Positions 19,250-62,460 of a stretch of 64,000 nucleotides of DNA are shown piece after piece. Position 1 is the first letter of the stretch; the number at the start of each line of letters is the position of its first letter. The notes beneath the pieces were generated by a model. The model was not told where the DNA came from and did not search any database. It worked only from the letters and a program-made list of their open reading frames with translations. The position numbers and the translations under genes were made by a program. The stretch is from Flaccisagitta enflata (Eukaryota), in the NCBI GenBank assembly GCA_965153355.1, contig OZ231126.1, positions 7,502,001 to 7,566,000 on the forward strand. Reading direction: 5' to 3'.

Positions 19250-20653
19250 TGTGGCTCTCGGTAGTATGTTTACTTTTTGTTATAAAAAATAATACTCACC
19301 TTGCCTTTTGTTCGTGTCCTTATATGGTGGCATACCTTATATAGGTGTCAACAATCTCATTTGCATATTAGCGTCAGTTTATGTCTCATCATGTCAGTCA
19401 CCTCATTCCCTACCCCATGATGTAACTCCCATGTCCGTAACGTCTATGGTTCATGAGTTATGGTGTAATAACATATGGTACCTCATTTACATATTATGGT
19501 CTCGTTACATTTGCTATTTAAATTTCTCACTCGGTCTGATTTCAAATCTGGCGTCCATTTTGCTCTAGGAGCTATGGTGTAAAAGATAGCAGACCGATGG
19601 GGTTATGTTCTCAAGCCTATGAGCGGCCAGTCCCATGGGGGTGGGCCTCATTGGATTGGGCCTGCATATTGTGGCGAGGATAATGAGCTTTGTGATGGCT
19701 TTGCACGCCCATTATCTCCTATCAACAGTATCTCAAAATAAGGGGTCAGGTTTAACCCCCTATACAAATGTTTCATCCTGATGGCCGATCCAGATCATTT
19801 TTATAGAGGTGAAAAGCCTCTGCAGTCCCCGGATTCGATCCTTGGACCTTTGGATCCAAGGTTCTCTCCCTTACCAGTCTCGCCACGGCGGCTGCAAGGA
19901 TTAACCTGCCAAAGCCTAAGGTGGTTCTTCCCCTCTTTGTTTTCTGCTTTGTTTTCCCCTTAATTTTCCTAAGTATGAGTGATTACATACTGTGCCCACA
20001 CTTAGCCTTATCCGATTACTATGATATTTGGTACATGCATAGATTAGCCTTAGAGAAAATGATTGGCGTTTTTGGTTTCCTCATTTTCGGCCAGGCTTAG
20101 CGACCCTGCCCAAATAACTTCTTTAGAAATTATCTCTATCTCTAACTTTTGCTTAATTAACTTATTCAAGCCTTTTGTTTGCTTCTACTTTAACAGAAGG
20201 ATTTGCCTTCTTGAATTTTGGATTAAGATGTTCATTTGTCATCAGGTCAGGTGACCTTCCCTCGTCCCCTCCGTGGTCACATGACCTTCCCAAGATGGCT
20301 GCCGCCATGGCAGGCAGCATGGCCAGATTGCTTACCTGTGGAATCTGTTTCGTTTATTCTGGTTCTTGTTTCTTAGCCAGAAAGGCTATAGTTTTCTCTC
20401 CTCGATTTTATTGCTATAAATAAAAGGCCTAAGGGTCTTACATTGAACTTGTGTTTTTATTTATGCTTGGGTGATTAGCCCAAAGCCAATAAGTACCCTC
20501 AAGGGTACCGAAGGACTTGAGGCTCCTGCCTCTGACCCTGTCCTTTGTGTTAAGACTTGTGTTTCGATGGTAAATAAGCTTTGTGCTTTAAAGCATGTTG
20601 TAAAGACATTAAATAACATTGGAGTCAATTTAACTGCTATTTACCTCGCTACA
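19250..20653 (+). repeat. 3' LTR of element A (1404 bp)
   Basis: Follows PPT, TG..CA ends, blocks homologous to the D/E and F LTRs. Confidence 0.9.
19821..19896 (-). ncRNA. tRNA-like module in the A LTR
   Basis: Homologous to 60227-60303; A box TGGCGAGACTGG, B-box variant GGATCGAATCC, T4 a few nt downstream. Confidence 0.5.
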
Positions 20654-39147: not shown

Positions 39148-40456
39148 TGTGGCCATTGGCCTAAGTATGGTGTCTCAATCTCATTTGCATAATGTCGTCA
39201 TGTTATACTCCATCATGTTCCTCACCTCATTTCCTTTCCAATGGTGTAAGTCTCATGTTTATGGTGTCAGCGGTTCATGAGTTATGGCCCATCAATGGTT
39301 GACATCTCATTTACATATTGTGGCGTCGTTACATTTCGTTATTAATAATTTCACTCGGTCTGATTCTGAATCTGATGTCTGTTTTTGTCTATCTGCTTCC
39401 TGTCAAAAGATAGCAGACCGATGGGGACATGTTCTTAGCCTATGAGCGGCCAGTCCCTTGGGGGTGGGCCTCATTGGATATGCCTTGCATATTGTGGCGA
39501 CGTTAATGAGCTTAGAGATGGCTTTACTCCTCTCATTAACTCCTTACAGCTTACTACAAAATATAGGGCCCAGGCACAAGCCCTATACATATTTACCTTC
39601 CTGATGGCCGATCCAGTCTATGTTTATAGAGCTGATAAGCTCTGCAGGCACCTGGATTCGATCCCTGGACCTTTGGACCCAGAGCTCTCTCCCTTACCGA
39701 TGTCGCCACGGCGGCTGCATGGATAGAGCTGCCAAAGCTTAGGGTGGTTCTCCCTTTACTCTGTTTTCCTTTGTTTCTCCTCCCTGTTTCTTCTAAGTTT
39801 TCCTCATTACATACTGTGCCCATAGTTGTGCTTATGCTATCGCCATGAAATTTTATGTGTATGTAGTATGATGTTAGAGAAAAGGTTTGGCGTCTCTTGT
39901 TTCATGATTTTATGGACAGGCTTAGTGCCCCTGCCCTTTAACTTCTTTTAGAATTATCTCTATCTCTCACTTTTGCTTAATTAAGTATTCAAGCCTTTTG
40001 TTTGCTTGTCTTTTGATAGAAGGATTTGCCTTCTCTTATTTTGGGTTCAATTGATCATTTGTCATCAGGTCATGTGATGTCCCCTCGTCCCCTCCTGGTC
40101 ACATGACCCTCCCAAAATGGCTGCCGCCATGGCAGGCAGCATGGCCAGACTGTTTAGCTGTGGGAAATAATTCTATCATTCTGGTTCTTGTTTTTTAGTC
40201 TGGATAGACTATAGTCTTCGCTCCTGTTTTTATTTTATTGCTTGAATAAATAACTTTGTATCTGAATAAGACTTTGTGCTATTATTAAAAGGGCTAGCAG
40301 CCCTCTAACTCTGCGAGTACCCCCGTGGGGTACCTATGGACTTGTGGCTACGCCACTGACCCTGTCCATAGTCTTATGGATTGCCAAAAGACTCAAAGGC
40401 ATTAATATCGCAATGGTAGACTTTGGAGTCATCTACCACTTTTGGGAATCGCTACA
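39148..40456 (+). repeat. 5' LTR of element D (1309 bp)
   Basis: TGTGGC..GCTACA, followed by AAT+PBS. Confidence 0.95.
39643..39719 (-). ncRNA. tRNA-like module in the D/E LTRs (also 48400-48476, 49917-49993, 58675-58751)
   Basis: A box TGGCGACAT(C/T)GG, B-box variant GGATCGAATCC, closed by TGCAG/CTGCA. Confidence 0.5.
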
Positions 40457-41827: not shown

Positions 41828-43132
41828 ATGAGTGGACAACGCCATCATCCCCACATCTCGGACGCTGCCTTCACCCCTTTCCAACACCTGATACCTACAC
41901 TTCCGGCCAACACGGACGGCTACATTGACAGCCTTCTCGCTTCGCCTCCACTTCAACCACGCCTTCAGGGCATGGACATTGATCAAAACAATCTCCAACA
42001 GTCACAGGCAGCAGCAACAACAATGGAGTTCACTCAGGAGAAGTTCATGCAACTGCAAGCGTTAGCAGAGAGACAAGCTAAGATGCTTGAGGATGGAAAT
42101 GCCTTTCAAAATGAAGCAGCTCGAAAGCTGCAAGATTCTCAACGCCAGTTGGAGGAAACCCAACGAAATCTCACAGATCTCACTGCTGCCTTCAACTCCC
42201 TCTCGACACAAGGTCGTCCTCTCACCGTCACTTCCGCTCCCAAGAAGAAGCCGGACCTCCCCGCCTTTGACAGCAAAAATGTCCTGGTGTGGATACGCAG
42301 AGTAGAGGCTGCTTACCGTCGAGCAGGGGTCATTGACCCCAAGGATAAATTCGCGTGGATGGAAAGCATTTTCCAGGTCAAACTCGATCCACAAATAGAC
42401 GCTTACTTGTATGGAGAAAATACAGCTCAAGATTGGGACGACTTTATCTCTTATCTTAAGAAGCAGTACGGTCCAACCATCCGCCAAAAGGCGCAGAAGC
42501 TCCTAGGAGACATTCCACGCCACGACTTGAAGCCTTCTCAATGGCTCCTTCAGCTCAAAGACGACACTAAAGACGTCGAGCTCGACCACATCCTTCGAGA
42601 ACATCTGCTCAAGACGATTCCTCCGCGAATAAGAGAGATAATGGGAAAGGAGGTGGAAGAAATGTCGTCAGAGGAAGTGGCTAAGATGGCGGACACATTC
42701 TTCGATCGCCAAGGCAAACCAGCTGAAAAGCAATCCACATCCATCAACAACGTCATGGCCTCTTCAACAGCTTCTGCCACTCCTCCTCCTCCTCGAGCCT
42801 CCTCCTCGACACCCTTCACACAAGCCTTCAGTGACGACGACGATGGCGACATCAACCACGTCAGAGGGGGAAGATTTCCAGGAAATGGTGGAAACCGTGG
42901 AAATAACAACAGAGGTCCTCGCAGCAAGAGCAGAAGCAACTTCACTCGCGCCCCAACATCTTCGTCAACGACTTCATCCTCCAATAACTCACAAACCAAG
43001 CAAGCAGGATTGTGTAGATGGCATAGAAAGTTTGGCGACAAGGCCCTGAAATGCCTCTCTGATTGTTCTCGTCATTCCACCTTCATGGCCTCACAAAACT
43101 CGGGAAACGGCCAGGGAGGACGCCGACAGTGA
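41828..43132 (+). CDS. gag: Gag of element D
   Basis: 434 aa; KPDLPAFD..WIRR; CRWHRKFGDKALKCLSDC. Confidence 0.95.
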   Translation: MSGQRHHPHISDAAFTPFQHLIPTLPANTDGYIDSLLASPPLQPRLQGMDIDQNNLQQSQAAATTMEFTQEKFMQLQALAERQAKMLEDGNAFQNEAARKLQDSQRQLEETQRNLTDLTAAFNSLSTQGRPLTVTSAPKKKPDLPAFDSKNVLVWIRRVEAAYRRAGVIDPKDKFAWMESIFQVKLDPQIDAYLYGENTAQDWDDFISYLKKQYGPTIRQKAQKLLGDIPRHDLKPSQWLLQLKDDTKDVELDHILREHLLKTIPPRIREIMGKEVEEMSSEEVAKMADTFFDRQGKPAEKQSTSINNVMASSTASATPPPPRASSSTPFTQAFSDDDDGDINHVRGGRFPGNGGNRGNNNRGPRSKSRSNFTRAPTSSSTTSSSNNSQTKQAGLCRWHRKFGDKALKCLSDCSRHSTFMASQNSGNGQGGRRQ

Positions 43133-46100: not shown

Positions 46101-46994
46101 CATGCCTCCATCCAATGGCTTTGACCACTTGTTAACTATTGTGGACCGCTTCTCAAGGTGGCCAGCAGCCATACCCATCGCCAACATCAGCGCTGAGACG
46201 GTCATAGATGCATTGACACATGGATGGATTGCAAACTACGGCGTCCCTGAAGTGATAACTACGGACCGAGGCAGCCAATTTTCGGCTCAAATATTCACCC
46301 AGCTTCTTGAAAATTGGGGCATTCGCCACATCGCCACAACAGCTTATCATCCGGAATCAAACGGAATGGTGGAGCGACTACATCGTCGTCTCAAAGAGAG
46401 CCTAATTGCTTTGGGCAGGGGAGAAAGGCTTCTTTGGTTTTGGAAACTGCCCATGTCATTACTGGCGCTAAGGACAACAATGAAGCCTGACTTAGGTTCC
46501 TCCCCAGCTGAACTTGTGTATGGAGAAGGCCTCACTGTGCCTGGCCAACTGATTGGGCCACCAAACCTTTCGGATGAAGAGCTTCTTCAGCAACAGCGAG
46601 CGACTCGAAACAACCTAAGGGTTGAAGTAGAACGTCTACAGCCAACTGCAACATCAGCCCATCGTGCTCCTAGGGTTAACATACCGGACGAACTCGCCAC
46701 TGCAACACACGTGTTAGTAAGAAAAGGTTTGCAGCAATCGCTTACAGCACCGTATGAAGGCCCTTTCGAGGTAGTCTCCAGACATGCGAATGGTTTCCGC
46801 CTACGCTTCCCAGGCAGGGGCACGGACATAGTCGCCCTGTCAAGACTAAAGCCAGCAATCATCGCACCGGAAGAAGAACGTGATGAGGAGGATAATAACG
46901 ATGTCACACCGCCATCTCCACCTCCTCCAGGTCGCCCTCCTGGTGTAAGAACGCGTCTTCCGGCTCCAACTTCCCGTCAGACACGCAGCTCGAC

Positions 46995-47038
<44 letters not shown>

Positions 47039-47550
47039 TCCGTCAGCAACAGCAGCAACAGCAGCAACAACAGTCGTCGACTCATGAGCCCAACAGCAGC
47101 TCGGGTGACTCGCAGATCCCGTGCTCTTCTCGCAGCGTTCCTGGAGAGCCCATTCCGGACTCACCACCTCCTCCTCCTCCTCCTTGTCGTCGTCAACGTC
47201 AGCGTCAACGTGACCCATCGCCGGAGCAACTGACAGACCCGACAGGCAGAGTCGAGTACCAGGACGATCCCAACCTCGCTCCATGCCCAACTCCTCAACA
47301 GGAACAGGCCTTAGCAGAGGCTTTTCCACATCAACCGGACCCGCTCAATCGTGATCCAAGAGACTTGGACCAGCCCTTGGTCCCTCCTACGCCATCCAAC
47401 TCTACTGCCAACGATGGTAACGCTCAAGGGGGCGTCAACAGGAAGAAAAAGACACTCTCATTTTCAAATCCAAAGAAGGGCCACTTCTCGTACCGTAGGC
47501 CCCGTCCTGACATAAACTTCCTTCGCCAAGTCATGAACGAGCTCAATTAA
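43063..47550 (+). CDS. pol: Pol of element D, -1 frameshift entry near 43102
   Basis: 1495-aa open frame with all PR, RT, RNase H and IN motifs. Confidence 0.97.
45238..45435 (+). repeat. Three ~66-bp coding tandem repeats (TPSxALxPxxSSNxAxSATxSS) in the RNase H-IN linker of D (same in E, about 55513-55710)
   Basis: ACACCCTCAG(G/T)GGCTCTC recurs every 66 bp. Confidence 0.85.
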
Positions 47551-47904
47551 TGTAGGTCACATTTTTACATTACTCTTTATTTAACAATTCCGTGGTAATA
47601 GCGTCATCTATCTTCCTTCTCGAGTGACAGTACAGTTGCTCTTTTGTTCTCTGATTAGTAGCGTCATCTATCTCATTTTTCTTTGTAGTAGCGTCATGTT
47701 ATCTCCACTGAGTGACAGTACAGTCCCTCAACTTTGCCGAGTGGTCAGGGCACTATAAACCTGGTAGGCTTTATATTTTACTTGCGTAGTATCGCAGAGG
47801 ACGCAACCTCTATAAAAAAAGATTACTAACCGTCATATCATGTTCACTCACGTCTTTTGAGTAGATTGTTCCCGTTCGTAACCCCGTACACAATCTAGGG
47901 GGCG

Positions 47905-49212
47905 TGTGGCCATTGGCCTAAGTATGGTGTCTCAATCTCATTTGCATAATGTCGTCATGTTATACTCCATCATGTTCCTCACCTCATTTCCTTTCCAATG
48001 GTGTAAGTCTCATGTTTATGGTGTCAGCGGTTCATGAGTTATGGTGCATCAATGGTTGACATCTCATTTACATATTGTGGCATCATTACATTTCATTATT
48101 GATAATTTCACTCGGTCTGATTCTGAATCTGATGTCTGTTTTTGTCTATCTGCTTCCTGTCAAAAGATAGCAGACCGATGGGGTCATGTTCTTAGCCTAT
48201 GAGCGGCCAGTCCCTTGGGGGTGGGCCTCATTGGATATGCCTTGCATATTGTGGCGACGTTAATGAGCTTAGAGATGGCTTTACTCCTCTCATTAACTCC
48301 TTACAGCTTACTACAAAATATAGGGCCCAGGCACAAGCCCTATACATATTTACCTTCCTGATGGCTGATCCAGTCTATGTTTATAGAGCTGATAAGCTCT
48401 GCAGGCACCTGGATTCGATCCCTGGACCTTTGGATCCAGAGCTCTCTCCCTTACCAATGTCGCCACGGCGGCTGCATGGATAGAGCCGCCAAAGCTTAGG
48501 GTGGTTCTCCCTTTCTCTGTTTTCCTTTGTTTCTCCTCCCTGTTTCTTCTAAGTTTTCCTCATTACATACTGTGCCCATAGTTGTGCTTATGCTATCGCC
48601 ATGAAATTTTATGTGTATGTAGTATGATGTTAGAGAAAAGGTTTGGCGTCTCTTGTTTCATGATTTTATGGACAGGCTTAGTGCCCCTGCCCTTTAACTT
48701 CTTTTAGAATTATCTCTATCTCTCACTTTTGCTTAATTAAGTATTCAAGCCTTTTGTTTGCTTGTCTTTTGATAGAAGGATTTGCCTTCTCTTATTTTGG
48801 GTTCAATTGATCATTTGTCATCAGGTCATGTGATGTCCCCTCGTCCCCTCCTGGTCACATGACCCTCCCAAAATGGCTGCCGCCATGGCAGGCAGCATGG
48901 CCAGACTGTTTAGCTGTGGGAAATAATTCTATCATTCTGGTTCTTGTTTTTTAGTCTGGATAGACTATAGTCTTCGCTCCTGTTTTTATTTTATTGCTTG
49001 AATAAATAACTTTGTATCTGAATAAGACTTTGTGCTATTATTAAAAGGGCTAGCAGCCCTCTAACTCTGCGAGTACCCCCGTGGGGTACCTATGGACTTG
49101 TGGCTACGCCACTGACCCTGTCCATAGTCTTATGGATTGCCAAAAGACTCAAAGGCATTAATATCGCAATGGTAGACTTTGGAGTCATCTACCACTTTTG
49201 GGAATCGCTACA
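47905..49212 (+). repeat. 3' LTR of element D (1308 bp), followed by a PBS copy (49213-49235)
   Basis: After PPT; ends GCTACA then AATTGGTGACTCCCGTCTCAAAG. Confidence 0.95.
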
Positions 49213-49235
49213 AATTGGTGACTCCCGTCTCAAAG

Positions 49236-49421: not shown

Positions 49422-50729
49422 TGTGGCCATTGGCCTAAGTATGGTGTCTCAATCTCATTTGCATAATGTCGTCATGTTATACTCCATCATGTTCCTCACC
49501 TCATTTCCTTTCCAATGGTGTAAGTCTCATGTTTATGGTGTCAGCGGTTCATGAGTTATGGCCCATCAATGGTTGACATCTCATTTACATATTGTGGCAT
49601 CGTTACATTTCGTTATTAATAATTTCACTCGGTCTGATTCTGAATCTGATGTCTGTTTTTGTCTATCTGCTTCCTGTCAAAAGATAGCAGACCGATGGGG
49701 ACATGTTCTTAGCCTATGAGCGGCCAGTCCCTTGGGGGTGGGCCTCATTGGATATGCCTTGCATATTGTGGCGACGTTAATGAGCTTAGAGATGGCTTTA
49801 CTCCTCTCATTAACTCCTTACAGCTTACTACAAAATATAGGGCCCAGGCACAAGCCCTATACATATTTACCTTCCTGATGGCCGATCCAGTCTATGTTTA
49901 TAGAGCTGATAAGCTCTGCAGGCACCTGGATTCGATCCCTGGACCTTTGGACCCAGAGCTCTCTCCCTTACCGATGTCGCCACGGCGGCTGCATGGATAG
50001 AGCTGCCAAAGCTTAGGGTGGTTCTCCCTTTCTCTGTTTTCCTTTGTTTCTCCTCCCTGTTTCTTCTAAGTTTTCCTCATTACATACTGTGCCCATAGTT
50101 GTGCTTATGCTATCGCCATGAAATTTTATGTGTATGTAGTATGATGTTAGAGAAAAGGTTTGGCGTCTCTTGTTTCATGATTTTATGGACAGGCTTAGTG
50201 CCCCTGCCCTTTAACTTCTTTTAGAATTATCTCTATCTCTCACTTTTGCTTAATTAAGTATTCAAGCCTTTTGTTTGCTTGTCTTTTGATAGAAGGATTT
50301 GCCTTCTCTTATTTTGGGTTCAATTGATCATTTGTCATCAGGTCATGTGATGTCCCCTCGTCCCCTCCTGGTCACATGACCCTCCCAAAATGGCTGCCGC
50401 CATGGCAGGCAGCATGGCCAGACTGTTTAGCTGTGGGAAATAATTCTATCATTCTGGTTCTTGTTTTTTAGTCTGGATAGACTATAGTCTTCGCTCCTGT
50501 TTTTATTTTATTGCTTGAATAAATAACTTTGTATCTGAATAAGACTTTGTGCTATTATTAAAAGGGCTAGCAGCCCTCTAACTCTGCGAGTACCCCCGTG
50601 GGGTACCTATGGACTTGTGGCTACGCCACTGACCCTGTCCATAGTCTTATGGATTGCCAAAAGACTCAAAGGCATTAATATCGCAATGGTAGACTTTGGA
50701 GTCATCTACCACTTTTGGGAATCGCTACA
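49422..50729 (+). repeat. 5' LTR of element E (1308 bp)
   Basis: Nearly identical to the D 5' LTR; followed by PBS. Confidence 0.95.
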
Positions 50730-52102
50730 AATTGGTGACTCCCGTCTCAAAGACAAGAGTTACGTTCTCTCCAACCTTCTGACATCGTGGTGACGACGTC
50801 GACGACGAGCTGCTGCAGCAGCATCAACCTGACTGTTACAAAACAAGTGTACAGACCAGAAACAACATTACCCTTGTGTTTTATCTTCAACAACTTCGCC
50901 ATCAAGGGTACCATCTCGTCGACAACGTCCCCAGCATCGAGTGGCGTCAACAACATCGTCGACAGCCTCTCCAAATCGCCTACGACGTCCACAACCCAAC
51001 ATCCTCGTCCACGACGTCGCCAACATCAAAGAAAAGAACAGGAGTCTCGAGACTGGGCTGGGCTTCGGTCAGCTGTCCCGGGCGAAGCTGGACTCGTCCT
51101 GGCCTGTGGGATTTGGCCATCAAGGAGGTCTCCGGCGCCAGTTCCTCGCATCCACACGTTGGGTGAGCCGGAAGTGTCACTGTAATACTTTAATTTACAG
51201 CCTTGACAAAGAAACCTCCACCAACCGACAGACATTAACAGCTTTTCACATTGTATTAATGCTGTTTCTTCCCATGCCATTTACTTCCGCATGTACTCGG
51301 TTACGGTCCCTTCCACGACTTCAATCGACTCCCACAACGCCTCGAGAGCTTCCCCACGACGCCACGATCCGTTCCAACGTCTTCAGCATCCGCAGACACC
51401 CTTTGGCTTCACTCCTCGAAGCCCACGCCTCGCCATTCGCATCCCAACGAAGTTAACCATCAATTGGACTCTCAAACGACTTCAGACGTCTTCAGACACG
51501 TGCAGCATCGTCTCCCACGGGTCCCCACGTCCACGACGACGTCCCAACACCTCGCCAACGTCTCCGTGACGCCCACGACGTCGAGCTGCTGCTGCAACCC
51601 TGCTGTCTTCGCGAGCTTCGACGCCAACATCCACCCTTCGAATTCGAAAAGCGAAAGACGATTTCGAGCGCCTCGAAAAGGCACTTCCGGTCGGAGTTGA
51701 AGGACAAAAATTTCAGGGATGGTAGACGGCACCCTCGACTACGTTGTATTAAAATTTGGTGACCGTCGGACGACTACTTCGCGTTCTCGATCAAATTGAA
51801 AACATAGGCGCTTTTCGAAGGCAAAAACGAGGATTTTTTCGCCGAGGGAATTTTCTGCCTTCCTCTAGTTGCAATTTGACGCCCTTTGGAACATAACAAC
51901 TAGACTACCTGAAGTACTTGGGATTCAAATTTCATGCCAATCGGTCTGCAGGTTCGGCCGCAACAGCTCGCCGAAAACGAAGTTCGAACTTCGCCTTTTT
52001 ACAACAACATTTCAACTCGTCTATCCATTTTTACTTCATATGTATTCTCTAGAAGTACATAGCCTCGCTTTTATTTCAACAACATATCCTCCCGTGATAT
52101 AA

Positions 52103-53407
52103 ATGAGTGGACAACGCCATCATCCCCACATCTCGGACGCTGCCTTCACCCCTTTCCAACACCTGATACCTACACTTCCGGCCAACACGGACGGCTACAT
52201 TGACAGCCTTCTCGCTTCGCCTCCACTTCAACCACGCCTTCAGGGCATGGACATTGATCAAAACAATCTCCAACAGTCACAGGCAGCAGCAACAACAATG
52301 GAGTTCACTCAGGAGAAGTTCATGCAACTGCAAGCGTTAGCAGAGAGACAAGCTAAGATGCTTGAGGATGGAAATGCCTTTCAAAATGAAGCAGCTCGAA
52401 AGCTGCAAGATTCTCAACGCCAGTTGGAGGAAACCCAACGAAATCTCACAGATCTCACTGCTGCCTTCAACTCCCTCTCGACACAAGGTCGTCCTCTCAC
52501 CGTCACTTCCGCTCCCAAGAAGAAGCCGGACCTCCCCGCCTTTGACAGCAAAAATGTCCTGGTGTGGATACGCAGAGTAGAGGCTGCTTACCGTCGAGCA
52601 GGGGTCATTGACCCCAAGGATAAATTCGCGTGGATGGAAAGCATTTTCCAGGTCAAACTCGATCCACAAATAGACGCTTACTTGTATGGAGAAAATACAG
52701 CTCAAGATTGGGACGACTTTATCTCTTATCTTAAGAAGCAGTACGGTCCAACCATCCGCCAAAAGGCGCAGAAGCTCCTAGGAGACATTCCACGCCACGA
52801 CTTGAAGCCTTCTCAATGGCTCCTTCAGCTCAAAGACGACACTAAAGACGTCGAGCTCGACCACATCCTTCGAGAACATCTGCTCAAGACGATTCCTCCG
52901 CGAATAAGAGAGATAATGGGAAAGGAGGTGGAAGAAATGTCGTCAGAGGAAGTGGCTAAGATGGCGGACACATTCTTCGATCGCCAAGGCAAACCAGCTG
53001 AAAAGCAATCCACATCCATCAACAACGTCATGGCCTCTTCAACAGCTTCTGCCACTCCTCCTCCTCCTCGAGCCTCCTCCTCGACACCCTTCACACAAGC
53101 CTTCAGTGACGACGACGATGGCGACATCAACCACGTCAGAGGGGGAAGATTTCCAGGAAATGGTGGAAACCGTGGAAATAACAACAGAGGTCCTCGCAGC
53201 AAGAGCAGAAGCAACTTCACTCGCGCCCCAACATCTTCGTCAACGACTTCATCCTCCAATAACTCACAAACCAAGCAAGCAGGATTGTGTAGATGGCATA
53301 GAAAGTTTGGCGACAAGGCCCTGAAATGCCTCTCTGATTGTTCTCGTCATTCCACCTTCATGGCCTCACAAAACTCGGGAAACGGCCAGGGAGGACGCCG
53401 ACAGTGA
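52103..53407 (+). CDS. gag: Gag of element E
   Basis: 434 aa, same translation as D Gag in the ORF track. Confidence 0.95.
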   Translation: MSGQRHHPHISDAAFTPFQHLIPTLPANTDGYIDSLLASPPLQPRLQGMDIDQNNLQQSQAAATTMEFTQEKFMQLQALAERQAKMLEDGNAFQNEAARKLQDSQRQLEETQRNLTDLTAAFNSLSTQGRPLTVTSAPKKKPDLPAFDSKNVLVWIRRVEAAYRRAGVIDPKDKFAWMESIFQVKLDPQIDAYLYGENTAQDWDDFISYLKKQYGPTIRQKAQKLLGDIPRHDLKPSQWLLQLKDDTKDVELDHILREHLLKTIPPRIREIMGKEVEEMSSEEVAKMADTFFDRQGKPAEKQSTSINNVMASSTASATPPPPRASSSTPFTQAFSDDDDGDINHVRGGRFPGNGGNRGNNNRGPRSKSRSNFTRAPTSSSTTSSSNNSQTKQAGLCRWHRKFGDKALKCLSDCSRHSTFMASQNSGNGQGGRRQ

Positions 53408-56400
53408 ACGCGGCCACCCCCTCCTCTTCATCATCATCAAAAAATGATTTATTATTCGTTCACGACGTCACTACGCGCCAGAAATGGTTAATAGATGGGG
53501 GCGCTGTCCTATCCATCGTCCCTCCCACATACGCTCAACGTTTAAATGGCCATTCAAATATGCAGCTGCAGGCTGCAAACGGCTCGAGGATCAAGTGCTT
53601 TGGAGTTAGGCAGATGCCAATACACCTGCCAGGGCGAAAATTCTCTTTTCCAGTGACGATTGCAGACGTCAAACAGCCAATCCTAGGGGCTGATTTTTTG
53701 GCTAAAAATTACTTGGCCCCAAACCATAGGGATGGTACCCTAATCGACCTCAAAGACATGTCGACTATCAAAGTGGATTTTGAAGATAAGGCTGAGCCTA
53801 TACGCGTGAACCACGTCAGTCAGGCGACAAACCCTTACTACAAGCTCCTGGATGGAAAATTCCCGGACCTTTCCAATCCCACTTTCAAGGTCAAAGACGT
53901 CGACCACGGGGTTTATCATTATATACCCACAGAAGGCCCCCCAGTGCAAGCAAGGGCCCGTAAACTGGACCCAGAAAAGTTAGCTGTGGCCAAGGCTGAA
54001 CTGGATAAGTTGGTTGAATTGGGAGTTTGCGAGAGGGGCAAATCAGATTGGTCCTCACCCCTACTCGTCACAACAAAGCCTTGTAATTCGCCCTGCACTT
54101 GCGAACAAGAAAAACCTTGTGGCGGATGGCGGGTCTGTGGAGACTATCGAAGGCTCAATGACCTTACCACAGACGACCGCTACCCTGTAAGAAACTTACA
54201 AGATTTCAACGCTGATCTTAGAGGCAAAACAATTTTTAGCAAAGTGGATTTGTTAAAAGGGTATCATCAAATCCCTGTATACCCTGATCATGTGAAAAAA
54301 ACTGCCGTCATAACGCCATTTGGCCTCTACCTCTTTCCACGCTGCCCCTTTGGCCTTAAAAATGCTGGCCAGGATTTCCAGCGACTCATGGACAAGATCC
54401 TCGGCGACATACCTCACACTTTCGTCTATTTGGACGATATTTTAATTGCCTCATCATCACCAGCTGAGCACCTCGAGGACCTCACGCGCGTCTTCACCAT
54501 CCTGGAAGAGAATGGTCTTGTCGTAAATCGCAAGAAGTGCATTCTTGGTGAAAGTTCCATCGAGTTTTTAGGCCACCTTTGCGACGCCCACGGCATCAAG
54601 CCATTGCCATGTAAAGTAGAGGCCATCAAAAAAGTTCAGCCACCAACAACAATTAAAGAATTGCAGCGTTTCTTGGGCATGATTAATTATTATCGCCGTT
54701 TTATAAAATCTGCCGCCCACCACCTCTACCACCTCTTCGACGCCCTCGGCTCCAAGCCAAAGCGCCTTCTATGGTCAACAGAGATGCAGGCCTCATTCGA
54801 GGCCATCAAGAACGCCCTCGCGAATGCAACAATGTTACACCATCCGGACTCGTCTCTTCCACTGGCTCTTACTACAGATGCCTCAGATGTAGCCATTGGA
54901 GCTGTTCTGGAGCAAAGAGGCCCCAACGGATGGGAACCTCTGGCGTTCTTTTCCAAAAAATTGTCGGATTCTCAGCAGAAATGGTGCCCCTACGACCGTG
55001 AACTGCATGCTGTGCACAAGGCAGTCCGCCATTTTAAGTACATGGTCGAGGGAAGAGCCTTCACGATCTATACAGATCACCAGAGTTTGGTGCCTTCGAT
55101 GTCAAAGAAGACTGAGGCCCAAACAGCTCGCCAAGCCAATCAACTTTCCGAAATTAGCGAGTATTCTACTGACATACGCTATTTAGAGGGCAAGAGTAAC
55201 GTTGTGGCTGACGCCCTCTCGAGGCCTAATGGTAAGCAAGAACCTCCTACAGTCAGCAACATCTCGCCAACTTATTCCTCCATGCCCCAACATGTTTTCT
55301 GTCAAGACATCAACCGCATGAGAGACGAAGGAATTCTGGGAATTCATCAAGTTGGTTATGAAGAAGAGGAAGATGATGAACCTGAAGTCGAAGAGTATAG
55401 ACCAGAGGAAGATGAAGAGATCGAGGAAGAATGGGAAACAGAGGCAAACTCTGACTTCTTTGACGAAATGGAAGTGAGGTACAATAAGCTCAAAGCTTGT
55501 TCTCGTCAACCAACACCCTCAGGGGCTCTCACTCCGTCTCCTTCTTCCAACACTGCTTCCTCTGCAACTTCGTCGTCAACACCCTCAGTGGCTCTCACTC
55601 CGCCTTCTTCTTCCAACACTGCTCCCTCTGCAACTCCGTCATCAACACCCTCAGTGGCTCTCCCTCCGTCGCCTTCTTCTAACTCAGCTTTCTCTGCAAC
55701 CTCGTCAACTCCAGCAAAAAGCAACCCGGCTAAGCAGGTCTCATTTGCACCAATCATCTCGTCAGTCTCTCGACCTCCAGAGTCTCCTTCAATGAACAAC
55801 GACGAGTGGCTTCAACATCTTGAAAGAATCTGCAGCCAGGGACAACCACCTCAGCCTTCACCTCCACCAACGCAGCAACAGTCCTCTCCTCCAATCCCTA
55901 AAGGTTATAAACCAGTTCCAGAGGAAAAGATTGAGGATCTTCAACTGCTGGTCAATTCAGTCAGCCACTTTGCCATCGATTTGGAAGACATGGCGCGCCA
56001 ACAGGCTTTAGACCCAGAGCTGAGAACGCTGAGAAGAGACGCAAGAACTGGACTCAGTTTCAGAAAGGTTAAGGTTGGGGCAACATACTTGTTTGTGGAC
56101 GTTTCGAATGGCCCTGCCCGCCCCTTCGTGCCACTGTCTTATCGCCGAAGGATATTTAATGTTATCCACAATTTGGGGCATCCAGGAGTCGAAAGGACTC
56201 GCCAAACCATAACTGACAAATTCGTTTGGCCTAATATTAGGCAGGACGTGTGCAAGTGGGCACGAGAGTGTGTGGCCTGCCAACAGGCCAAAATTCAACG
56301 CCATGTGGTACCACCCATAGCAGAATTCTCCGTCCCACCAAAACGCTTTCAACATATCCACCTGGATTTGGTGTCCATGCCTCCATCCAATGGCTTTGAC

Positions 56401-57269
56401 CACTTGTTAACTATTGTGGACCGCTTCTCAAGGTGGCCAGCAGCCATACCCATCGCCAACATCAGCGCTGAGACGGTCATAGATGCATTGACACATGGAT
56501 GGATTGCAAACTACGGCGTCCCTGAAGTGATAACTACGGACCGAGGCAGCCAATTTTCAGCTCAAATTTTCACCCAGCTTCTCGAAAATTGGGGCATTCG
56601 CCACATCGCCACAACAGCTTATCATCCGGAATCAAACGGAATGGTGGAGCGCCTACATCGTCGCCTCAAGGAGAGCCTAATTGCTTTGGGCAGGGGAGAA
56701 AGGCTTCTTTGGTTTTGGAAACTGCCCATGTCATTACTGGCGCTAAGGACAACAATGAAGCCTGACTTAGGTTCCTCCCCAGCTGAACTTGTGTATGGAG
56801 AAGGCCTCACTGTGCCTGGCCAACTGATTGGGCCACCAAACCTTTCGGATGAAGAGCTTCTTCAGCAACAGCGAGCGACTCGAAACAACCTAAGGGTTGA
56901 AGTAGAACGTCTGCAGCCAACTGCAACATCAGCCCATCGTGCTCCTAGGGTTAACATACCGGACGAACTCGCCACTGCAACACACGTGTTAGTAAGAAAA
57001 GGTTTGCAGCAATCGCTTACAGCACCGTATGAAGGCCCTTTCGAGGTAGTCTCCAGACATGCGAATGGTTTCCGCCTACGCTTCCCAGGCAGGGGCACGG
57101 ACATAGTCGCCCTGTCAAGACTAAAGCCAGCAATCATCGCACCGGAAGAAGAACGTGATGAGGAGGATCATAATGATGTCACACCGCCATCTCCACCTCC
57201 TCCAGGTCGCCCTCCTGGTGTAAGAACGCGTCTTCCGGCTCCAACTTCCCGTCAGACACGCAGCTCGAC

Positions 57270-57313
<44 letters not shown>

Positions 57314-57825
57314 TCCGTCAGCAACAGCAGCAACAGCAGCAACAACAGTCGTCGACTCATGAGCCCAACAGCAGCTCGGGTGACTCGCAGATCCCGTGCT
57401 CTTCTCGCAGCGTTCCTGGAGAGCCCATTCCGGACTCACCACCTCCTCCTCCTCCTCCTTGTCGTCGTCAACGTCAGCGTCAACGTGACCCATCGCCGGA
57501 GCAACTGACAGACCCGACAGGCAGAGTCGAGTACCAGGACGATCCCAACCTCGCTCCATGCCCAACTCCTCAACAGGAACAGGCCTTAGCAGAGGCTTTT
57601 CCACATCAACCGGACCCGCTCAATCGTGATCCAAGAGACTTGGACCAGCCCTTGGTCCCTCCTACGCCATCCAACTCTACTGCCAACGATGGTAACGCTC
57701 AAGGGGGCGTCAACAGGAAGAAAAAGACACTCTCATTTTCAAATCCAAAGAAGGGCCACTTCTCGTACCGTAGGCCCCGTCCTGACATAAACTTCCTTCG
57801 CCAAGTCATGAACGAGCTCAATTAA
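53338..57825 (+). CDS. pol: Pol of element E, -1 frameshift entry near 53377
   Basis: 1495 aa; the only difference from D that I spotted is EEDNND versus EEDHND. Confidence 0.97.
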
Positions 57826-58179
57826 TGTAGGTCACATTTTTACATTACTCTTTATTTAACAATTCCGTGGTAATAGCGTCATCTATCTTCCTTCTCGAGT
57901 GACAGTACAGTTGCTCTTTTGTTCTCTGATTAGTAGCGTCATCTATCTCATTTTTCTTTGTAGTAGCGTCATGTTACTTTCACTGAGTGACAGTACAGTC
58001 CCTCAACTTCGTCGAGTGGTCAGGGCACTATAAACCTGGTAGGCCTTATATTTTACTTGCGTAGTATCGCAGAGGACGCAACCTCTATAAAAAAAGAATA
58101 CTAACCGTCATATCATGTTCACTCACGTCTTTTGTTTAGATTGTTTCCGTTCGCAACCCCGTACACAATCTAGGGGGCG

Positions 58180-59487
58180 TGTGGCCATTGGCCTAAGTAT
58201 GGTCTCTTAAACTCATTTGCATATAGTCGTCATGTTATGTCTCATCATGTCACTCGCCTCATATCCTTTCCAATGATGTAACTCTCATGTCTATGGTGTC
58301 AGCGGTTCATGAGTTATGGCCCATCAATGGTTGACATCTCATTTACATATTGTGGCATCGTTACATTTCGTTATTAATAATTTCACTCGGTCTGATTCTG
58401 AATTTGATGTCTGTTTTTGTCTATCTGCTTCCTGTCAAAAGATAGCAGACCGATGGGGAAATGTTTTCAGCCTATGAGCGGCCAGTCCCTTGGGGGTGGG
58501 CCTCATTGGATATGCCTTGCATATTGTGGCGACGTTAATGAGCTTAGAGATGGCTTTACTCCTCTCATTAACTCCTTACAGCTTACTACAAAATATAGGG
58601 CCCAGGCACAAGCCCTATACATATTTACCTTCCTGATGGCCGATCCAGTCTATGTTTATAGAGCTGATAAGCTCTGCAGGCACCTGGATTCGATCCCTGG
58701 ACCTTTGGATCCAGAGCTCTCTCCCTTACCAATGTCGCCACGGCGGCTGCATGGATAGAGCCGCCAAAGCTTAGGGTGGTTCTCCCTTTCTCTGTTTTCC
58801 TTTGTTTCTCCTCCCTGTTTCTTCTAAGTTTTCCTCATTACATACTGTGCCCATAGTTGTGCTTATGCTATCGCCATGAAATTTTATGTGTATGTAGTAT
58901 GATGTTAGAGAAAAGGTTTGGCGTCTCTTGTTTCATGATTTTATGGACAGGCTTAGTGCCCCTGCCCTTTAACTTCTTTTAGAATTATCTCTATCTCTCA
59001 CTTTTGCTTAATTAAGTATTCAAGCCTTTTGTTTGCTTGTCTTTTGATAGAAGGATTTGCCTTCTCTTATTTTGGGTTCAATTGATCATTTGTCATCAGG
59101 TCATGTGATGTCCCCTCGTCCCCTCCTGGTCACATGACCCTCCCAAAATGGCTGCCGCCATGGCAGGCAGCATGGCCAGACTGTTTAGCTGTGGGAAATA
59201 ATTCTATCATTCTGGTTCTTGTTTTTTAGTCTGGATAGACTATAGTCTTCGCTCCTGTTTTTATTTTATTGCTTGAATAAATAACTTTGTATCTGAATAA
59301 GACTTTGTGCTATTATTAAAAGGGCTAGCAGCCCTCTAACTCTGCGAGTACCCCTGTGGGGTACCTATGGACTTGTGGCTACGCCACTGACCCTGTCCAT
59401 AGTCTTATGGATTGCCAAAAGACTCAAAGGCATTAATATCGCAATGGTAGACTTTGGAGTCATCTACCACTTTTGGGAATCGCTACA
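58180..59487 (+). repeat. 3' LTR of element E (1308 bp)
   Basis: After PPT; ends GCTACA|GGGTTAG. Confidence 0.95.
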
Positions 59488-59688: not shown

Positions 59689-61069
59689 TGTAGCTCTCAT
59701 GCGTCTCCTGCCTTTATTCCTGCCCAGTAGCCTTATGATAGCTGTTTACTTATATGTCCTTTAATCTCATTTGCATATTGAGGTAGCTTTTGTGTTTATT
59801 GTTTCCGTCTCGTCATGGGCTTTCACATGGTGTAAGTATCATCACCATAGGTTATGTGGTTCATGAGTTATGGCACTTTTTCTATTGTGCCTCATTTGCA
59901 TATTGCTGTCGTATGTTTTATTATTTAGCAAAATAAATTGTACACCCGTACGTATAGTAGAAATTGGATATCTGTTACGGTTGCTTAGATATGGGCATTT
60001 TTGTATTTCACCATGCTTTCCTATGGGGCGGCTTGTCCAATGGTGGTGAGCCTCATCGGATATCACCGCATATTGTGGCGACCTTAATGAGGCCTCAGAT
60101 GTCTTGCTGGGAGCCTCATTCATCCTATTTCTCTCATTTTAAAATAAAGGGTTCAGTATTAACCCCTTTACATATGTCCCTTCCAGGCGGTAGTTCCGGT
60201 CTGTTTTTATAGTGGTGATCACCCACTGCAACTGCCTGGATTTGAACCCTGGACCTTTGGATCCGAGGTCAAGTCCCTTACCCATGTCGCCACGGCGGCT
60301 GCATGGACTTACCTCCCAAAGCTTAGGGTGGTTTCTCCTTTGCCCTTACCTTTAAGCTCACTGCTTAGGATTTTCCTAAGTCCGGTCTGTTTTATAGTGA
60401 GCACCTACTTGTAGTTATGCTAGAGCTATAAAACTTTACACACTGATAGAGTTATTGATAAGAAAATGTTTGGCGTTTTTAGATTTCTCATTTTTGGTCA
60501 GGCTCACTGGCCCTGCCCTTTTTCGTTTGTGTTGGATTATCTCTATCTCTCAATTTTGCTTAATTTATGCAAAGAGGCCAATTGTTTTCTCCCCTTAGCT
60601 TTGTCCTCTCGTTTTAGGATTGACCTGTTCTTTTGTCACCAAGGTCACATGTGTCACAGGTTCCTCCCCTTGGTCTCTTCCTCTTCAAAGATGGCTGCCG
60701 CCATGGCACCAGCTTTTACTCAGACTGTTAACCTTTGAAATCGTTTCCTTTCAGTCTGGTTCTTCGATTTTAGGCTCAAGCCTATGTTTTGTGCTCCTGT
60801 TTTTATTGATGTTTTAATAAAAGGCTAAGGCCTTGTGATCAAACTTGTGTGCATTATTGCATGGGTGATAACCCCAGCATAATAAGTACCCTAAGGGTAC
60901 CCATGGACTTGAGGCCCCTGCCTCTGACCCTGTCCATGGACTGCAGACTATGATATAAGGCTAAAGCCTTAATAACTTGTTACTGTGGCATTTGCCTATC
61001 AATGTGATAACTGTAAAGACATTATTAAGACTTGTATGGAGTCCAAGTCGGTCGGATGTCACAGCTACA
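59689..61069 (+). repeat. 5' LTR of element F (1381 bp)
   Basis: 7-bp terminal inverted repeat, PBS downstream, blocks shared with A and D LTRs. Confidence 0.9.
60227..60303 (-). ncRNA. tRNA-Arg-like Pol III module (A box TGGCGACATGG, B box GGTTCAAATCC) antisense in the F LTR
   Basis: Minus strand GCCGCCGTGGCGACATGGGTAAGGGACTTGACCTCGGATCCAAAGGTCCAGGGTTCAAATCCAGGCAGTTGCA is 73 nt and collinear with a eukaryotic tRNA-Arg(TCG) as I recall it; stems are imperfect. Confidence 0.6.
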
Positions 61070-61769
61070 AATTGGTGAGCCCGACTTAAGAACTCACCCT
61101 ACCAACCTTCTACCGGAAGTGGCGCCAAAATCACGGGACAACGACGTCGACAACCTGCTGCAGCAGCATCATTTTCACTGCCACAACTTGTGTACAGACA
61201 GAGACAACATTGCCTTTGTGTTTTCATCACCACCTCGTCGACATCGTCTCCAGCATCTCGTTTCCGTGGTTAACAGCACGTGGTCACGCCAACAACGTCG
61301 TCCACGCCATCAGCATCGCCTCCAAAGCTTCCAATTCGAGTCAACACAGTCGCCAACAACCCAAGAGGAGTCCCTCGTCTTGGCCTCTTAGAGGGGCCGA
61401 CTTGGGCGACCATTGGACCCGCCAGGCGCCGTGGAGATCGGCCAGAAAGGGGGTCTGGTGCAGGAGCACCTACCCTACCCATAGGGTGAGCCAGACAGAG
61501 AGTGTAGTAATCAATAACTATCACTTTCCATCCCCCCTGACCGACTCGACAGACAACAGATTCAGTTGTTTCTTTGTTATTCATGCTTTTGCTTCCCATC
61601 ATTTTCCCGCATGTACCCACGTCCTGACGCCCTTCAACGCTGCCATTCGACTCGGGGACACCTGGTACGAGTCAGTCACGTCCACGACTTCACTCTCGAC
61701 CTCTCACGACGTCCACAGACGCCCAACACCCCGTGGTCGACTTCAGTTTGAATCTGCAACAACAGGCGG

Positions 61770-62460
61770 CCAAAGGTTCGACAGGACGCCACAACAACAA
61801 CGTCTCACGGCCAAACGGTTGGCAGCACGATCAACCAACGCAGCAGTCACGTCAACGGGATCCCCGGGCACGTCACTGCACCGTCCATTCGTCGCTGCAC
61901 GCGCCCAACAGCTCGTCAACAGCATCCGCATCGGGTACGCGACGAACCGCCGCCGTCATTAACTTTAACAACGTCTCACAGCCAAACGGTGGACAGCACG
62001 ATCAACCAACGCGGGTAACACGTAGTCCTCAACCTCGGGTACACGACCATATCCAACAATCACCCCTCACGACCTCCAACGGGCCGTCAACTGCTTCCTT
62101 CTCGGCGACGTCGACGAACCTCCGCCGCCGCGTTTTCAAACGTTCACCAACGCCAAAGTACGACCCTCAGCATCGTGAAACTTTTATGGAAGGTACTTCT
62201 GATAGTGTTCTACAACATTCAATCTCGATAGCAGCTATTTTTAATCGTCAAGCAGCTTTACTAGTCGACGAAAGATCGTCCTCGACGAACCGCCGCCGAC
62301 GCCATCTTGTAATCGTTCTCGAATCGCCAAATCTTGCTCTATCGACTTCAGCTCGGAGTTAGTAGTCCCTCACATCGTGCTTTACCTTCCCAACAACCGG
62401 CATCACTTAATTCCTTCGCCAAGTGGCTCGTCCGCGCATCCGAATCACACTAAACCGCGA
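61770..62460 (+). repeat. ~171-bp periodic degenerate repeat in the leader of element F
   Basis: CGTCTCAC.GCCAAACGGT at 61801 and 61972; GACGAACC at 61941, 62113 and 62284; boundaries approximate. Confidence 0.7.

What the first reader, a model, noticed from the sequence alone, without database searches (positions are those of the whole stretch)
60227..60303. Antisense tRNA-Arg-like Pol III cassette conserved inside LTRs of three families
Seen: a 76-77 nt block is conserved in the otherwise diverged LTRs of A (19821-19896), D/E (39643-39719 and three more) and F. On the minus strand it has an A box and B box at tRNA spacing, TCG at the anticodon position in F, and closing TGCAG..(C/T)TGCA ends. 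Known: TFIIIC-bound tDNAs can act as heterochromatin barriers; Cassandra TRIMs carry 5S-derived Pol III sequences in their LTRs. Inference: a captured tDNA that may insulate the LTR promoter from telomeric silencing or make a small antisense RNA. Stems are too imperfect for a working tRNA, and A/D/E have a non-consensus B box.
Basis: partly seen in the sequence, partly recalled or inferred. Interest (0 to 1): 0.72.

Follow-up and report, generated by a model that had tools for sequence, protein, structure and literature searches.

The report
Backwards tRNA-Arg relic inside retrotransposon LTRs
A 77-base stretch shared by the long terminal repeats of three retrotransposon families that live in telomere repeats is a worn-out, backwards copy of an arginine tRNA gene; it can no longer make a tRNA, yet it is the best-kept piece of those repeats and may serve as a regulatory landing pad.

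Summary
Six + strand copies of a 77-nt block lie about 495 nt inside the 1.3-1.4 kb LTRs of Ty3/gypsy families A, D/E and F, which are inserted in (TTAGGG)n. Read on the minus strand, the block aligns without gaps to real tRNA-Arg(TCG) genes: 44, 40 and 39 of 73 positions. A pattern made of 32 block-invariant bases matched 61 places in the metagenome collection, and all of them were tRNA-Arg(TCG) genes. A profile of 15 real tRNA-Arg genes ranks the six copies as its top six hits in the window (F: E 3e-7).

It is not a tRNA. ARAGORN and Rfam find nothing, and only 8-12 of 21 cloverleaf pairs survive. Box A is off consensus in every copy, and box B is intact only in F.

The block is the top-ranked conserved window of the LTR (59 of 78 invariant columns against 46% overall), but four other islands come close. 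Family C lacks it and looks recently active.

Best reading: a single ancient reverse-oriented capture of a tRNA-Arg gene or SINE head into U3, kept as a dispensable cis-regulatory module. Pol III or TFIIIC activity is possible but untested. This is a new variant of known tRNA-like LTR sequences such as Helenus.

The parts
60227..60303 (-). tRNA-Arg(UCG)-derived block, family F 5' LTR. It is the most tRNA-like copy: TCG at positions 34-36 and box B GGTTCAAATCC.
   Evidence: 44 of 73 gapless identity to a real tRNA-Arg(TCG), z 12.4. nhmmer with the tRNA-Arg profile gives E 3.3e-7. 12 of 21 cloverleaf pairs survive. ARAGORN and Rfam find nothing.
48400..48476 (-). Block, family D 3' LTR.
   Evidence: 40 of 73 identity, z 6.7. 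nhmmer E 0.034. No Rfam tRNA hit.
39643..39719 (-). Block, family D 5' LTR.
   Evidence: 39 of 73 identity. nhmmer E 0.75, same register as the other copies.
49917..49993 (-). Block, element E 5' LTR. E is a tandem twin of D.
   Evidence: The bins 49910-50029 hold the highest and third-highest contig word depth in run X1.
58675..58751 (-). Block, element E 3' LTR.
19820..19896 (-). Block, family A 3' LTR. A T4 run follows 5 nt after its minus-strand end.
   Evidence: 39 of 73 identity, z 4.8, 13 of 5000 shuffles as good. nhmmer E 0.22. T-run position.
60206..60212 (.). Conserved TTTATAG (TATAAA on the minus strand), 14-20 nt from the block. The same motif is at 48380-48386 (D3') and 19800-19806 (A).
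   Evidence: Invariant in the alignments. Its function is not tested.
60141..60171 (-). Conserved hairpin followed, on the minus strand, by a T4 run 82-83 nt past the block. Equivalents are at about 48315-48345 (D3') and 19735-19765 (A). This is a candidate Pol III stop if the block is transcribed antisense.
   Evidence: T runs at +83, +82 and +82. The hairpin has 8 pairs, one of them compensatory.
59689..61069 (+). Family F 5' LTR (1381 nt), which carries the block about 540 nt in. The other block-bearing LTRs are A 19250-20653, D 39148-40456 and 47905-49212, and E 49422-50729 and 58180-59487.
   Evidence: LTR ends TG..CA, the PPT and the PBS were read.
48868..48892 (+). Strongly conserved AA(A/G)ATGGCTGCCGCCATGGCA box, with a conserved AATAAA at 49001. 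The two landmarks place the block in U3 (inference).
   Evidence: Alignment. This part of the LTR is also shared with family C.

Best explanation
The block is a decayed, reverse-oriented copy of a tRNA-Arg(UCG) gene, or of the head of a tRNA-Arg-derived SINE.

Origin: it was captured once in the U3 part of the LTR of an ancestor of a clade of Ty3/gypsy retrotransposons that insert into TTAGGG telomere repeats.

What it is not: it no longer encodes a tRNA.

What happened since: it has been kept better than any other 78-nt stretch of the LTR. Shared substitutions turned its middle into a 9-14 bp hairpin or palindrome (GGATCCAAAGGTCC).

Likely function: I read it as a dispensable cis-regulatory module of U3 that acts mainly as DNA. 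That would be a protein landing site, with a residual type-2 Pol III promoter or TFIIIC site as the most specific candidate.

Shown: the tRNA-Arg origin, the orientation, the loss of the cloverleaf, the excess conservation and the absence from family C. Inferred: the U3 location, a single capture, and any regulatory role.
For: Origin.
- A pattern of 32 bases invariant in all block copies matched 61 places in 44 stretches of metagenome contigs.
- All 61 matches are tRNA-Arg(TCG) genes. ARAGORN called 82 Arg-tcg, 1 Met and 1 Glu in those loci.
- Gapless identity to one such tRNA is 44, 40, 39 and 39 of 73 for F, D3', D5' and A. Of 5000 shuffles each, 0, 0 and 13 score as well for F, D3' and A.
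- A sequence profile of 15 real tRNA-Arg genes puts the six copies at ranks 1-6 in the 64-kb window, all on the minus strand and in one register.

Single capture.
- 50 of 73 positions are invariant across A, D and F. Of these, 16 differ from the reference tRNA in the same way in all three.

Not a tRNA.
- ARAGORN finds 0 genes and Rfam finds 0.
- 12, 11 and 8 of 21 cloverleaf pairs survive in F, D and A.

Conservation.
- The block window ranks 1 of 1373.

U3 location.
- A conserved AATAAA lies about 525 nt downstream of the block's end, and a conserved box about 390 nt downstream.

Residual Pol III features.
- Box B matches 10 of 11 tRNA positions in each family.
- Spacing is as in a tRNA.
- A conserved T4 run lies 82-83 nt downstream on the minus strand.

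Strand.
- The consensus fold is -24.0 kcal/mol on the minus strand against -16.0 on the plus strand.
Against: - The function is untested. The RNA run gave 0 reads on the LTR.
- Conservation is not centred on the Pol III boxes. Positions 36-50 are 15 of 15 invariant, against 9 of 12 for box A and 9 of 11 for box B.
- TRGCY is missed in 4 of 4 distinct copies, and GGTTC is missed in A, D and E.
- Four other LTR islands are nearly as conserved, so the block may simply be one of several conserved stretches.
- Family C lacks the block, yet its two LTRs are 99.77% identical over 868 nt and it sits in the same array.
- The comparison tRNAs were fetched with a pattern taken from the block, and I chose its N positions with tRNA-Arg in mind, so the choice of isoacceptor is post hoc.
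- There are only three independent families, so covariation rests on one compensatory pair.
Confidence: 0.6

Rival explanations
1. Live antisense Pol III cassette. Boxes A and B still recruit TFIIIC and Pol III. This would make a small antisense RNA of about 80 nt in A or about 160 nt in D, E and F. Alternatively it would form a tDNA-like heterochromatin barrier between the telomere repeats and the LTR promoter.
For: - F keeps a consensus-type box B, and the other families match 10 of 11 tRNA positions.
- Box spacing is as in a tRNA.
- T4 runs lie at +82/83 in all three families, after a conserved hairpin, and at +5 in A.
- The fold is better on the minus strand, and the one-sided changes in the central helix mostly give G-U pairs on that strand.
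- The block lies between the telomere repeats and the putative promoter box.
Against: - Box A misses TRGCY in every copy, and position 14 is C or G.
- GGTTC is lost in A, D and E.
- The strongest constraint lies outside the boxes.
- Families C and B live in the same telomere array without the block.
Confidence: 0.2
2. Neutral relic. The tRNA-derived insert has no function of its own and looks conserved only because it sits in a generally conserved central part of U3, or because the families diverged unevenly.
For: - Other islands score 55, 55, 50 and 49 of 78 against 59 for the block.
- The cloverleaf stems have decayed freely.
- Family C lost the region and looks recently active.
Against: - The block ranks 1 of 1373 windows.
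- 15 of 15 positions are invariant in the middle of the block, while the LTRs are only 56-68% identical overall.
- In run X1 the contig word depth is highest in the block bins. This hints that many more LTR copies share it (the tool warns that depth is not a copy number).
Confidence: 0.2
3. Plus-strand RNA element. The block would work in the element's own RNA. It could be a hairpin at the 5' end of R, if transcription starts after the TTTATAG motif. Or it could be a stretch in U3 complementary to tRNA-Arg that helps priming, as in the two-part primer-binding site of Ty3 (recalled, not read here).
For: - TTTATAG is conserved 14-20 nt upstream of the block on the + strand.
- The + strand is by construction complementary to tRNA-Arg(UCG) at 39-44 of 73 positions.
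Against: - The plus-strand fold is weaker: z -0.6 to -1.9 for single copies and -16.0 kcal/mol for the consensus.
- The PBS after the 5' LTR (TGGTGACTCCCGTC in D, TGGTGAGCCCGAC in F) is not the complement of the 3' end of the tRNA-Arg(TCG) genes fetched.
- The conserved AATAAA and promoter-like box argue for a transcription start about 400 nt downstream.
Confidence: 0.07

Closest known systems
Helenus (TRIMp3), Kojima 2024, PMC10886601. I read the abstract, the Results (part 1 of 2) and the Discussion; I did not open the supplements.
   Same: [quoted passage not shown] Animal members give 4-bp target duplications and depend on Gypsy elements. The paper also states that 'not a few' Repbase LTRs contain tRNA-like parts.
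   Different: Helenus elements are 311-1263 bp, non-autonomous, and carry the tRNA-like part as the presumed promoter of the element itself. Here the carriers are autonomous elements of about 10 kb with 1.3-1.4 kb LTRs. The tRNA-like part points against the element's own transcription, misses TRGCY, and in A, D and E also misses GGTTC.
Cassandra TRIMs (5S rRNA-derived LTR promoter). Seen in the search listing and abstract of PMC10853983, and as described in PMC10886601.
   Same: A small-RNA gene fragment with an internal Pol III promoter, fixed inside an LTR and conserved across families.
   Different: Derived from 5S rRNA rather than tRNA, found in plants, in sense orientation, in non-autonomous elements, with Pol III transcripts reported.
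tDNA and SINE boundary elements (TFIIIC-bound tDNAs, extra-TFIIIC sites, B2 SINE boundaries). Abstracts of PMC8136502 and PMC5340127 were seen in a search listing; the yeast tDNA barrier work is recalled.
   Same: tRNA-type box B sequences that can act on chromatin independently of any tRNA product. The geometry fits: the block lies between the telomere repeats and the putative LTR promoter.
   Different: No binding or barrier data exist here. Box B is off consensus in three of four distinct copies. Sister families in the same array lack the block.
Pol III-transcribed small-RNA cassettes in retroviruses (BLV miRNA cluster: abstract of PMC12498455 seen in a search listing; foamy-virus LTR miRNAs: recalled).
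   Same: Type-2 Pol III units embedded in a retroelement, in the foamy-virus case within U3, giving hairpin RNAs.
   Different: Those lie in sense orientation and have long Dicer-type stems. The central helix here has only 9-14 pairs, and no RNA has been seen.

Membership tests
Functional tRNA gene (RF00005) | Cloverleaf detected by tRNA finders and by the covariance model | tested here: not met
   ARAGORN finds 0 genes in the window. Rfam at gathering thresholds finds 0. There is no tRNA hit at E<=10 on the F and D copies. With ARAGORN relaxed to 80% of its thresholds, only A is called, in a different register, against 31 hits in 900 shuffles.
Functional tRNA gene (RF00005) | Four intact stems and U33 | tested here: not met
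   12, 11 and 8 of 21 pairs are kept in F, D and A. Position 33 is C in F and A.
tRNA-Arg(UCG)-derived sequence | Significant full-length sequence similarity to real tRNA-Arg(TCG) genes, in register | tested here: met
   44, 40 and 39 of 73 positions without gaps, and 0, 0 and 13 of 5000 shuffles as good. The profile gives E 3.3e-7 for F, and all six copies take ranks 1-6. The 32-base block pattern hit only tRNA-Arg(TCG) genes, 61 of 61. Caveat: the isoacceptor was chosen post hoc, and only Met and Glu were on hand as other isotypes.
Type-2 Pol III promoter | Box A (TRGCY ... YGG, as used in PMC10886601) | tested here: not met
   All four distinct copies read TGGCG, so TRGCY is missed; YGG is present.
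Type-2 Pol III promoter | Box B core GGTTC | tested here: inconclusive
   Present in F (GGTTCAAATCC). A, D and E read GGATC.
Type-2 Pol III promoter | A T run downstream on the transcribed strand | tested here: met
   T4 at +82/83 in A, D and F, and also at +5 in A.
Type-2 Pol III promoter | Pol III transcript or TFIIIC occupancy | not testable with these tools
   The one RNA run offered laid 0 reads on the LTR, which the tool itself rates as no test.
Helenus / TRIMp3 | Short non-autonomous TRIM (311-1263 bp) whose LTR tRNA-like part serves as its own promoter | tested here: not met
   The carriers encode PR-RT-RH-IN polyproteins of about 1495 aa and span about 10 kb. The block is antisense to the element.
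tRNA-derived SINE (SINE2) head inserted in an LTR | Free SINE copies with the same head elsewhere in the host genome, and target duplications around the insert | not testable with these tools
   No host genome is held and no Repbase is on hand. The CTGCA repeats at both ends of the block could be a duplication or a stem.
Ty3/gypsy LTR retrotransposon (the carrier) | PR-RT-RH-IN order, TG..CA LTRs, PBS, PPT and a short target duplication | tested here: met
   Pfam finds RVT_1, RT_RNaseH, Integrase_H2C2 and rve in that order. LTR ends, PBS, PPT and the GGGT duplication were read.

The most novel reading that the evidence does not exclude
A clade of autonomous, telomere-repeat-specific Ty3/gypsy elements keeps a domesticated tRNA-Arg gene relic in U3 as a working TFIIIC/Pol III site. 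It would shield the LTR promoter from telomeric silencing, or it would make an antisense small RNA of about 80-160 nt that tunes the element's own activity at chromosome ends. That would be a Pol III module serving a Pol II-driven retrotransposon.
Probability: 0.15. Interest if true: 0.75.

Novelty: new variant of a known kind. Interest (0 to 1): 0.45.

Why it matters
tRNA- and 5S-derived pieces in LTRs are known so far as self-promoters of tiny non-autonomous elements (Helenus, Cassandra). Here a tRNA-derived piece sits backwards in the U3 of full-size autonomous elements and is their best-conserved LTR segment. It therefore cannot be the element's own promoter and must be either a different kind of regulatory part or a relic.

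Because the carriers live inside telomere repeats, the case gives a concrete sequence on which to test whether TFIIIC-type sites protect mobile elements from telomeric silencing.

Practically, such relics are a source of tRNA-like false leads in genome annotation.

Tried and rejected
- Working tRNA: rejected.
- Other RNA families: only chance-level hits, to mir-8993 (E 0.86), snR77 (E 4.5) and MIR162_1 (E 0.16), all far below gathering scores.
- Relatives in viral contigs. A 21-nt block pattern gave 3 loci that on reading are unrelated chance matches. An F-type 28-base tRNA-like pattern gave 0.
- Relatives in metagenome contigs: 0 of 61 matches was an LTR; all were tRNA genes. No further block variants could therefore be collected.
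- Host genome: none is held. The records behind the metagenome loci are not held, so I had no panel of other eukaryotic tRNAs.
- Expression: no RNA holder is listed. The one RNA run added from the same study laid 0 reads out of about 12 million read, which the tool rates as no test.
- Primer read-through origin (the block as a copy of the primer tRNA): rejected. There is no CCA at the tRNA-like 3' end and A has a T4 trailer. The PBS differs from the 3' end of tRNA-Arg(TCG).
- Block present in all telomeric families: rejected; C and B lack it.
- One literature search failed on a malformed term and was repeated correctly.

Full report
**Context**

The right two-thirds of the window is an array of LTR retrotransposons separated by TTAGGG repeats.
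- The long ORFs carry RVT_1, RT_RNaseH, Integrase_H2C2 and rve in Ty3/gypsy order.
- I distinguish these elements:
  - A: 3' part only, LTR 19250-20653.
  - B: minus strand, 510-nt LTRs.
  - C: 868-nt LTRs at 29259-30126 and 38033-38899.
  - D and E: near-identical, 10275 bp apart, with LTRs of about 1308 nt.
  - F: 5' LTR 59689-61069.
- The nearest protein clusters are animal gypsy elements.
- 1844 relatives of the pol protein exist, and the 120 listed are all unnamed metagenome proteins.
- No host genome is held.

**The observation**

- A pattern from the 3' half of the block finds six + strand copies and nothing else, with 0 expected from shuffles. A profile of the block confirms the same six.
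- The copies lie about 495 nt (D, E), 540 nt (F) and 570 nt (A) into the LTR.
- In a three-family LTR alignment, overall identity is 68% (A-D), 58% (A-F) and 56% (D-F), and 46% of columns are invariant.
- The block window has 59 of 78 invariant columns and ranks first of 1373 windows. Other islands score 55, 55, 50 and 49.
- So the block is the best-kept island of LTRs that can be aligned throughout. It is not a lone conserved spot in unrelated LTRs.

**Is it tRNA-like beyond chance?**

Structure-based tools say no.
- ARAGORN finds nothing.
- Rfam finds nothing at gathering thresholds and lists no tRNA hit at E<=10 on the F or D copy.
- ARAGORN relaxed to 80% of its thresholds calls only copy A, in a different register, at a rate close to that of shuffles (31 of 900).

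Sequence says yes.
- I wrote a pattern of the 32 minus-strand bases that are invariant in all copies and scanned the metagenome collection with it. It matched 61 places in 44 stretches.
- Every match is a tRNA-Arg(TCG) gene with a T-run trailer. ARAGORN called 82 Arg-tcg, 1 Met and 1 Glu in those loci.
- Against one of these genes, the block aligns without a single gap over all 73 tRNA positions:

| Copy | Identity | Shuffles as good (of 5000) | z |
|---|---|---|---|
| F | 44 of 73 | 0 | 12.4 |
| D3' | 40 of 73 | 0 | 6.7 |
| D5' | 39 of 73 | not run | - |
| A | 39 of 73 | 13 | 4.8 |

- A sequence-only profile of 15 distinct real tRNA-Arg genes, run over the whole window, returns the six copies as its top six hits. 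All are on the minus strand and in one register. E is 3.3e-7 for F, 0.034 for the D3' and E3' copies, 0.22 for A and 0.75 for the D5' and E5' copies.
- Caveat: I fetched the tRNAs with a pattern taken from the block, and I chose its N positions with tRNA-Arg in mind. The isoacceptor is therefore a post hoc choice, and I had only Met and Glu as other isotypes for comparison.

**Anatomy on the minus strand**

- Cloverleaf pairs kept: 12 of 21 in F, 11 in D and 8 in A.
- TCG stands at positions 34-36 only in F. Position 33 is C in F and A.
- The box A stretch reads TGGCG... in all copies, so the TRGCY start used for Helenus (PMC10886601) is missed while YGG is kept.
- Box B reads GGTTCAAATCC in F and GGATCGAATCC in A, D and E.
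- 50 of 73 positions are invariant among A, D and F. Of these, 34 are identical to the tRNA and 16 are the same departure from it in all three families. This points to one capture followed by shared decay. Some of the 16 may simply reflect differences between the host's own tRNA-Arg and my reference.
- Invariance by region:

| Region (tRNA positions) | Invariant |
|---|---|
| 1-7 | 7 of 7 |
| Box A | 9 of 12 |
| 20-26 | 7 of 7 |
| 27-35 | 1 of 9 |
| 36-50 | 15 of 15 |
| Box B | 9 of 11 |
| 63-73 | 2 of 11 |

- The best-kept part, positions 36-50, lies outside both Pol III boxes. It holds five shared substitutions that create a near-palindrome, GGATCCAAAGGTCC.
- The consensus fold has a central helix of up to 14 pairs with one compensatory change. 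It gives -24.0 kcal/mol on the minus strand against -16.0 on the plus strand.
- Single-copy z-scores are -2.0 to -2.9 on the minus strand and -0.6 to -1.9 on the plus strand. With three families this is a hint, not proof, of a minus-strand RNA structure.

**Surroundings**

- A conserved TTTATAG (TATAAA on the minus strand) lies 14-20 nt from the block.
- On the minus strand the first shared T4 run lies 82-83 nt past the block in all three families, directly after a conserved 8-pair hairpin. A has an extra T4 at +5.
- No CCA follows the tRNA-like 3' end. The source was therefore a gene or a SINE, not a mature primer tRNA.
- The PBS after the 5' LTRs (TGGTGACTCCCGTC in D, TGGTGACTCCCGAC in C, TGGTGAGCCCGAC in F) is not the complement of the 3' end of the tRNA-Arg(TCG) genes fetched.
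- A conserved AATAAA (A 20419, D3' 49001, F 60816) and a strongly conserved AA(A/G)ATGGCTGCCGCCATGGCA box (D3' 48868-48892) lie about 400-600 nt downstream. This part of the LTR is shared with family C.
- From these landmarks I infer that the block lies in U3, upstream of the Pol II start. No transcript data were obtainable: the RNA run laid 0 reads.
- In the DNA run X1, contig word depth is highest in the bin holding most of the block and third-highest in the next: 19283 and 9571, against 300-4400 in most bins. This hints that many more LTR copies share the block. The tool warns that depth is not a copy number.

**Dispensability**

- Families C and B lack the block.
- C shares the LTR's 5' and 3' parts with D, but its middle differs.
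- Gag identity is 64% for F-C, 58% for F-D and 52% for C-D. The integrase region is 75% for A-D and 68% for A-C.
- C is therefore not an outgroup, and loss in C is the simpler reading. This rests on pairwise identities only; I built no tree.
- C's two LTRs are 99.77% identical over 868 nt, so an element without the block transposed recently into the same telomere array.

**Interpretation**

- The origin is well supported: a reverse-oriented tRNA-Arg(UCG) gene or SINE head.
- A working tRNA is excluded.
- For function I favour a dispensable DNA-level regulatory module of U3. A residual TFIIIC/Pol III site is the most specific candidate, and an unrelated factor site on the palindrome is the alternative.
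It is most plausible in F.
- A neutral relic is about equally likely.
- A plus-strand RNA role is unlikely.

**Comparison with what is known**

- Kojima 2024 (PMC10886601; abstract, Results part 1 and Discussion read) reports that 'not a few' Repbase LTRs contain tRNA-like parts.
- That paper defines Helenus as TRIMs of 311-1263 bp whose LTR tRNA-like part is the presumed Pol III promoter of the element. It proposes an origin by SINE insertion into an LTR.
- The present case shares the tRNA-derived LTR insert and the non-functional tRNA. It differs in orientation (antisense), in carrier (autonomous elements of about 10 kb) and in box conservation.
- I therefore rate it a new variant of a known kind.
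- Three literature searches listed no antisense tRNA-derived module in the LTRs of autonomous elements. The library covers only open-access papers and preprints.

Noticed in passing
Junctions at 20653/20654, 29258/29259, 38899/38900, 39147/39148, 49421/49422, 59487/59488 and 59688/59689: The gypsy elements A, C, D, E and F all sit in TTAGGG repeats in the same orientation and the same phase. The 5' junction reads TTAGGGT|TG(T/A) in 4 of 4 (C, D, E, F). The 3' junction reads ACA|GGGTTAGGG in 3 of 4 (A, C, E). This amounts to a 4-bp GGGT target duplication and looks like sequence-specific insertion of an LTR element into telomere repeats. Three literature searches listed none, and the abstract of PMC3706591 says that strict target specificity was known only for non-LTR elements.
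   Followed up: partly
window 49213-49235: The 3' LTR of D is followed by AAT plus an 18-nt copy of the PBS, and then by telomere repeats. The 3' LTR of its twin E ends normally. The D end looks like a plus-strand strong-stop DNA end that was captured without integrase trimming. Compare the integrase-independent Tf1 insertions (PMC11042837, abstract seen in a search listing).
   Followed up: no
window 28999-29024 (element B, minus strand): The direct repeats of B include 12 nt (a copy of its polypurine tract) outside its 5' LTR, next to degenerate telomere repeats. This is the mirror image of the oddity at D's 3' end.
   Followed up: no
window 39148-49235 and 49422-59487: D and E are near-identical (internal stretches 100%, LTRs 99-100%) at a spacing of 10275 bp, while the 5' and 3' LTRs of one element differ by about 2%. 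This fits a segmental duplication within the telomere array rather than two separate insertions.
   Followed up: partly
window 61090-61962: F has a 290-aa open frame in its leader, between the PBS and gag, with no Pfam hit. It shows only weak similarity to the translated leader of C: 42% over 65 aa and 58% over 31 aa.
   Followed up: partly
window 48868-48892 (also F about 60688-60712 and A about 20291-20315): An AA(A/G)ATGGCTGCCGCCATGGCA box is invariant across the A, D and F LTRs and lies in the part shared with C. It resembles a YY1-type site (motif recalled, not tested) and may mark the core promoter.
   Followed up: no
window 3464-3830, 5358-6537 and 9371-10605: Long simple repeats, (GAGG)n, (CTCT)n over 1.2 kb and (TGT)n over 1.2 kb, fill the left part of the window, proximal to the retrotransposon array.
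   Followed up: no
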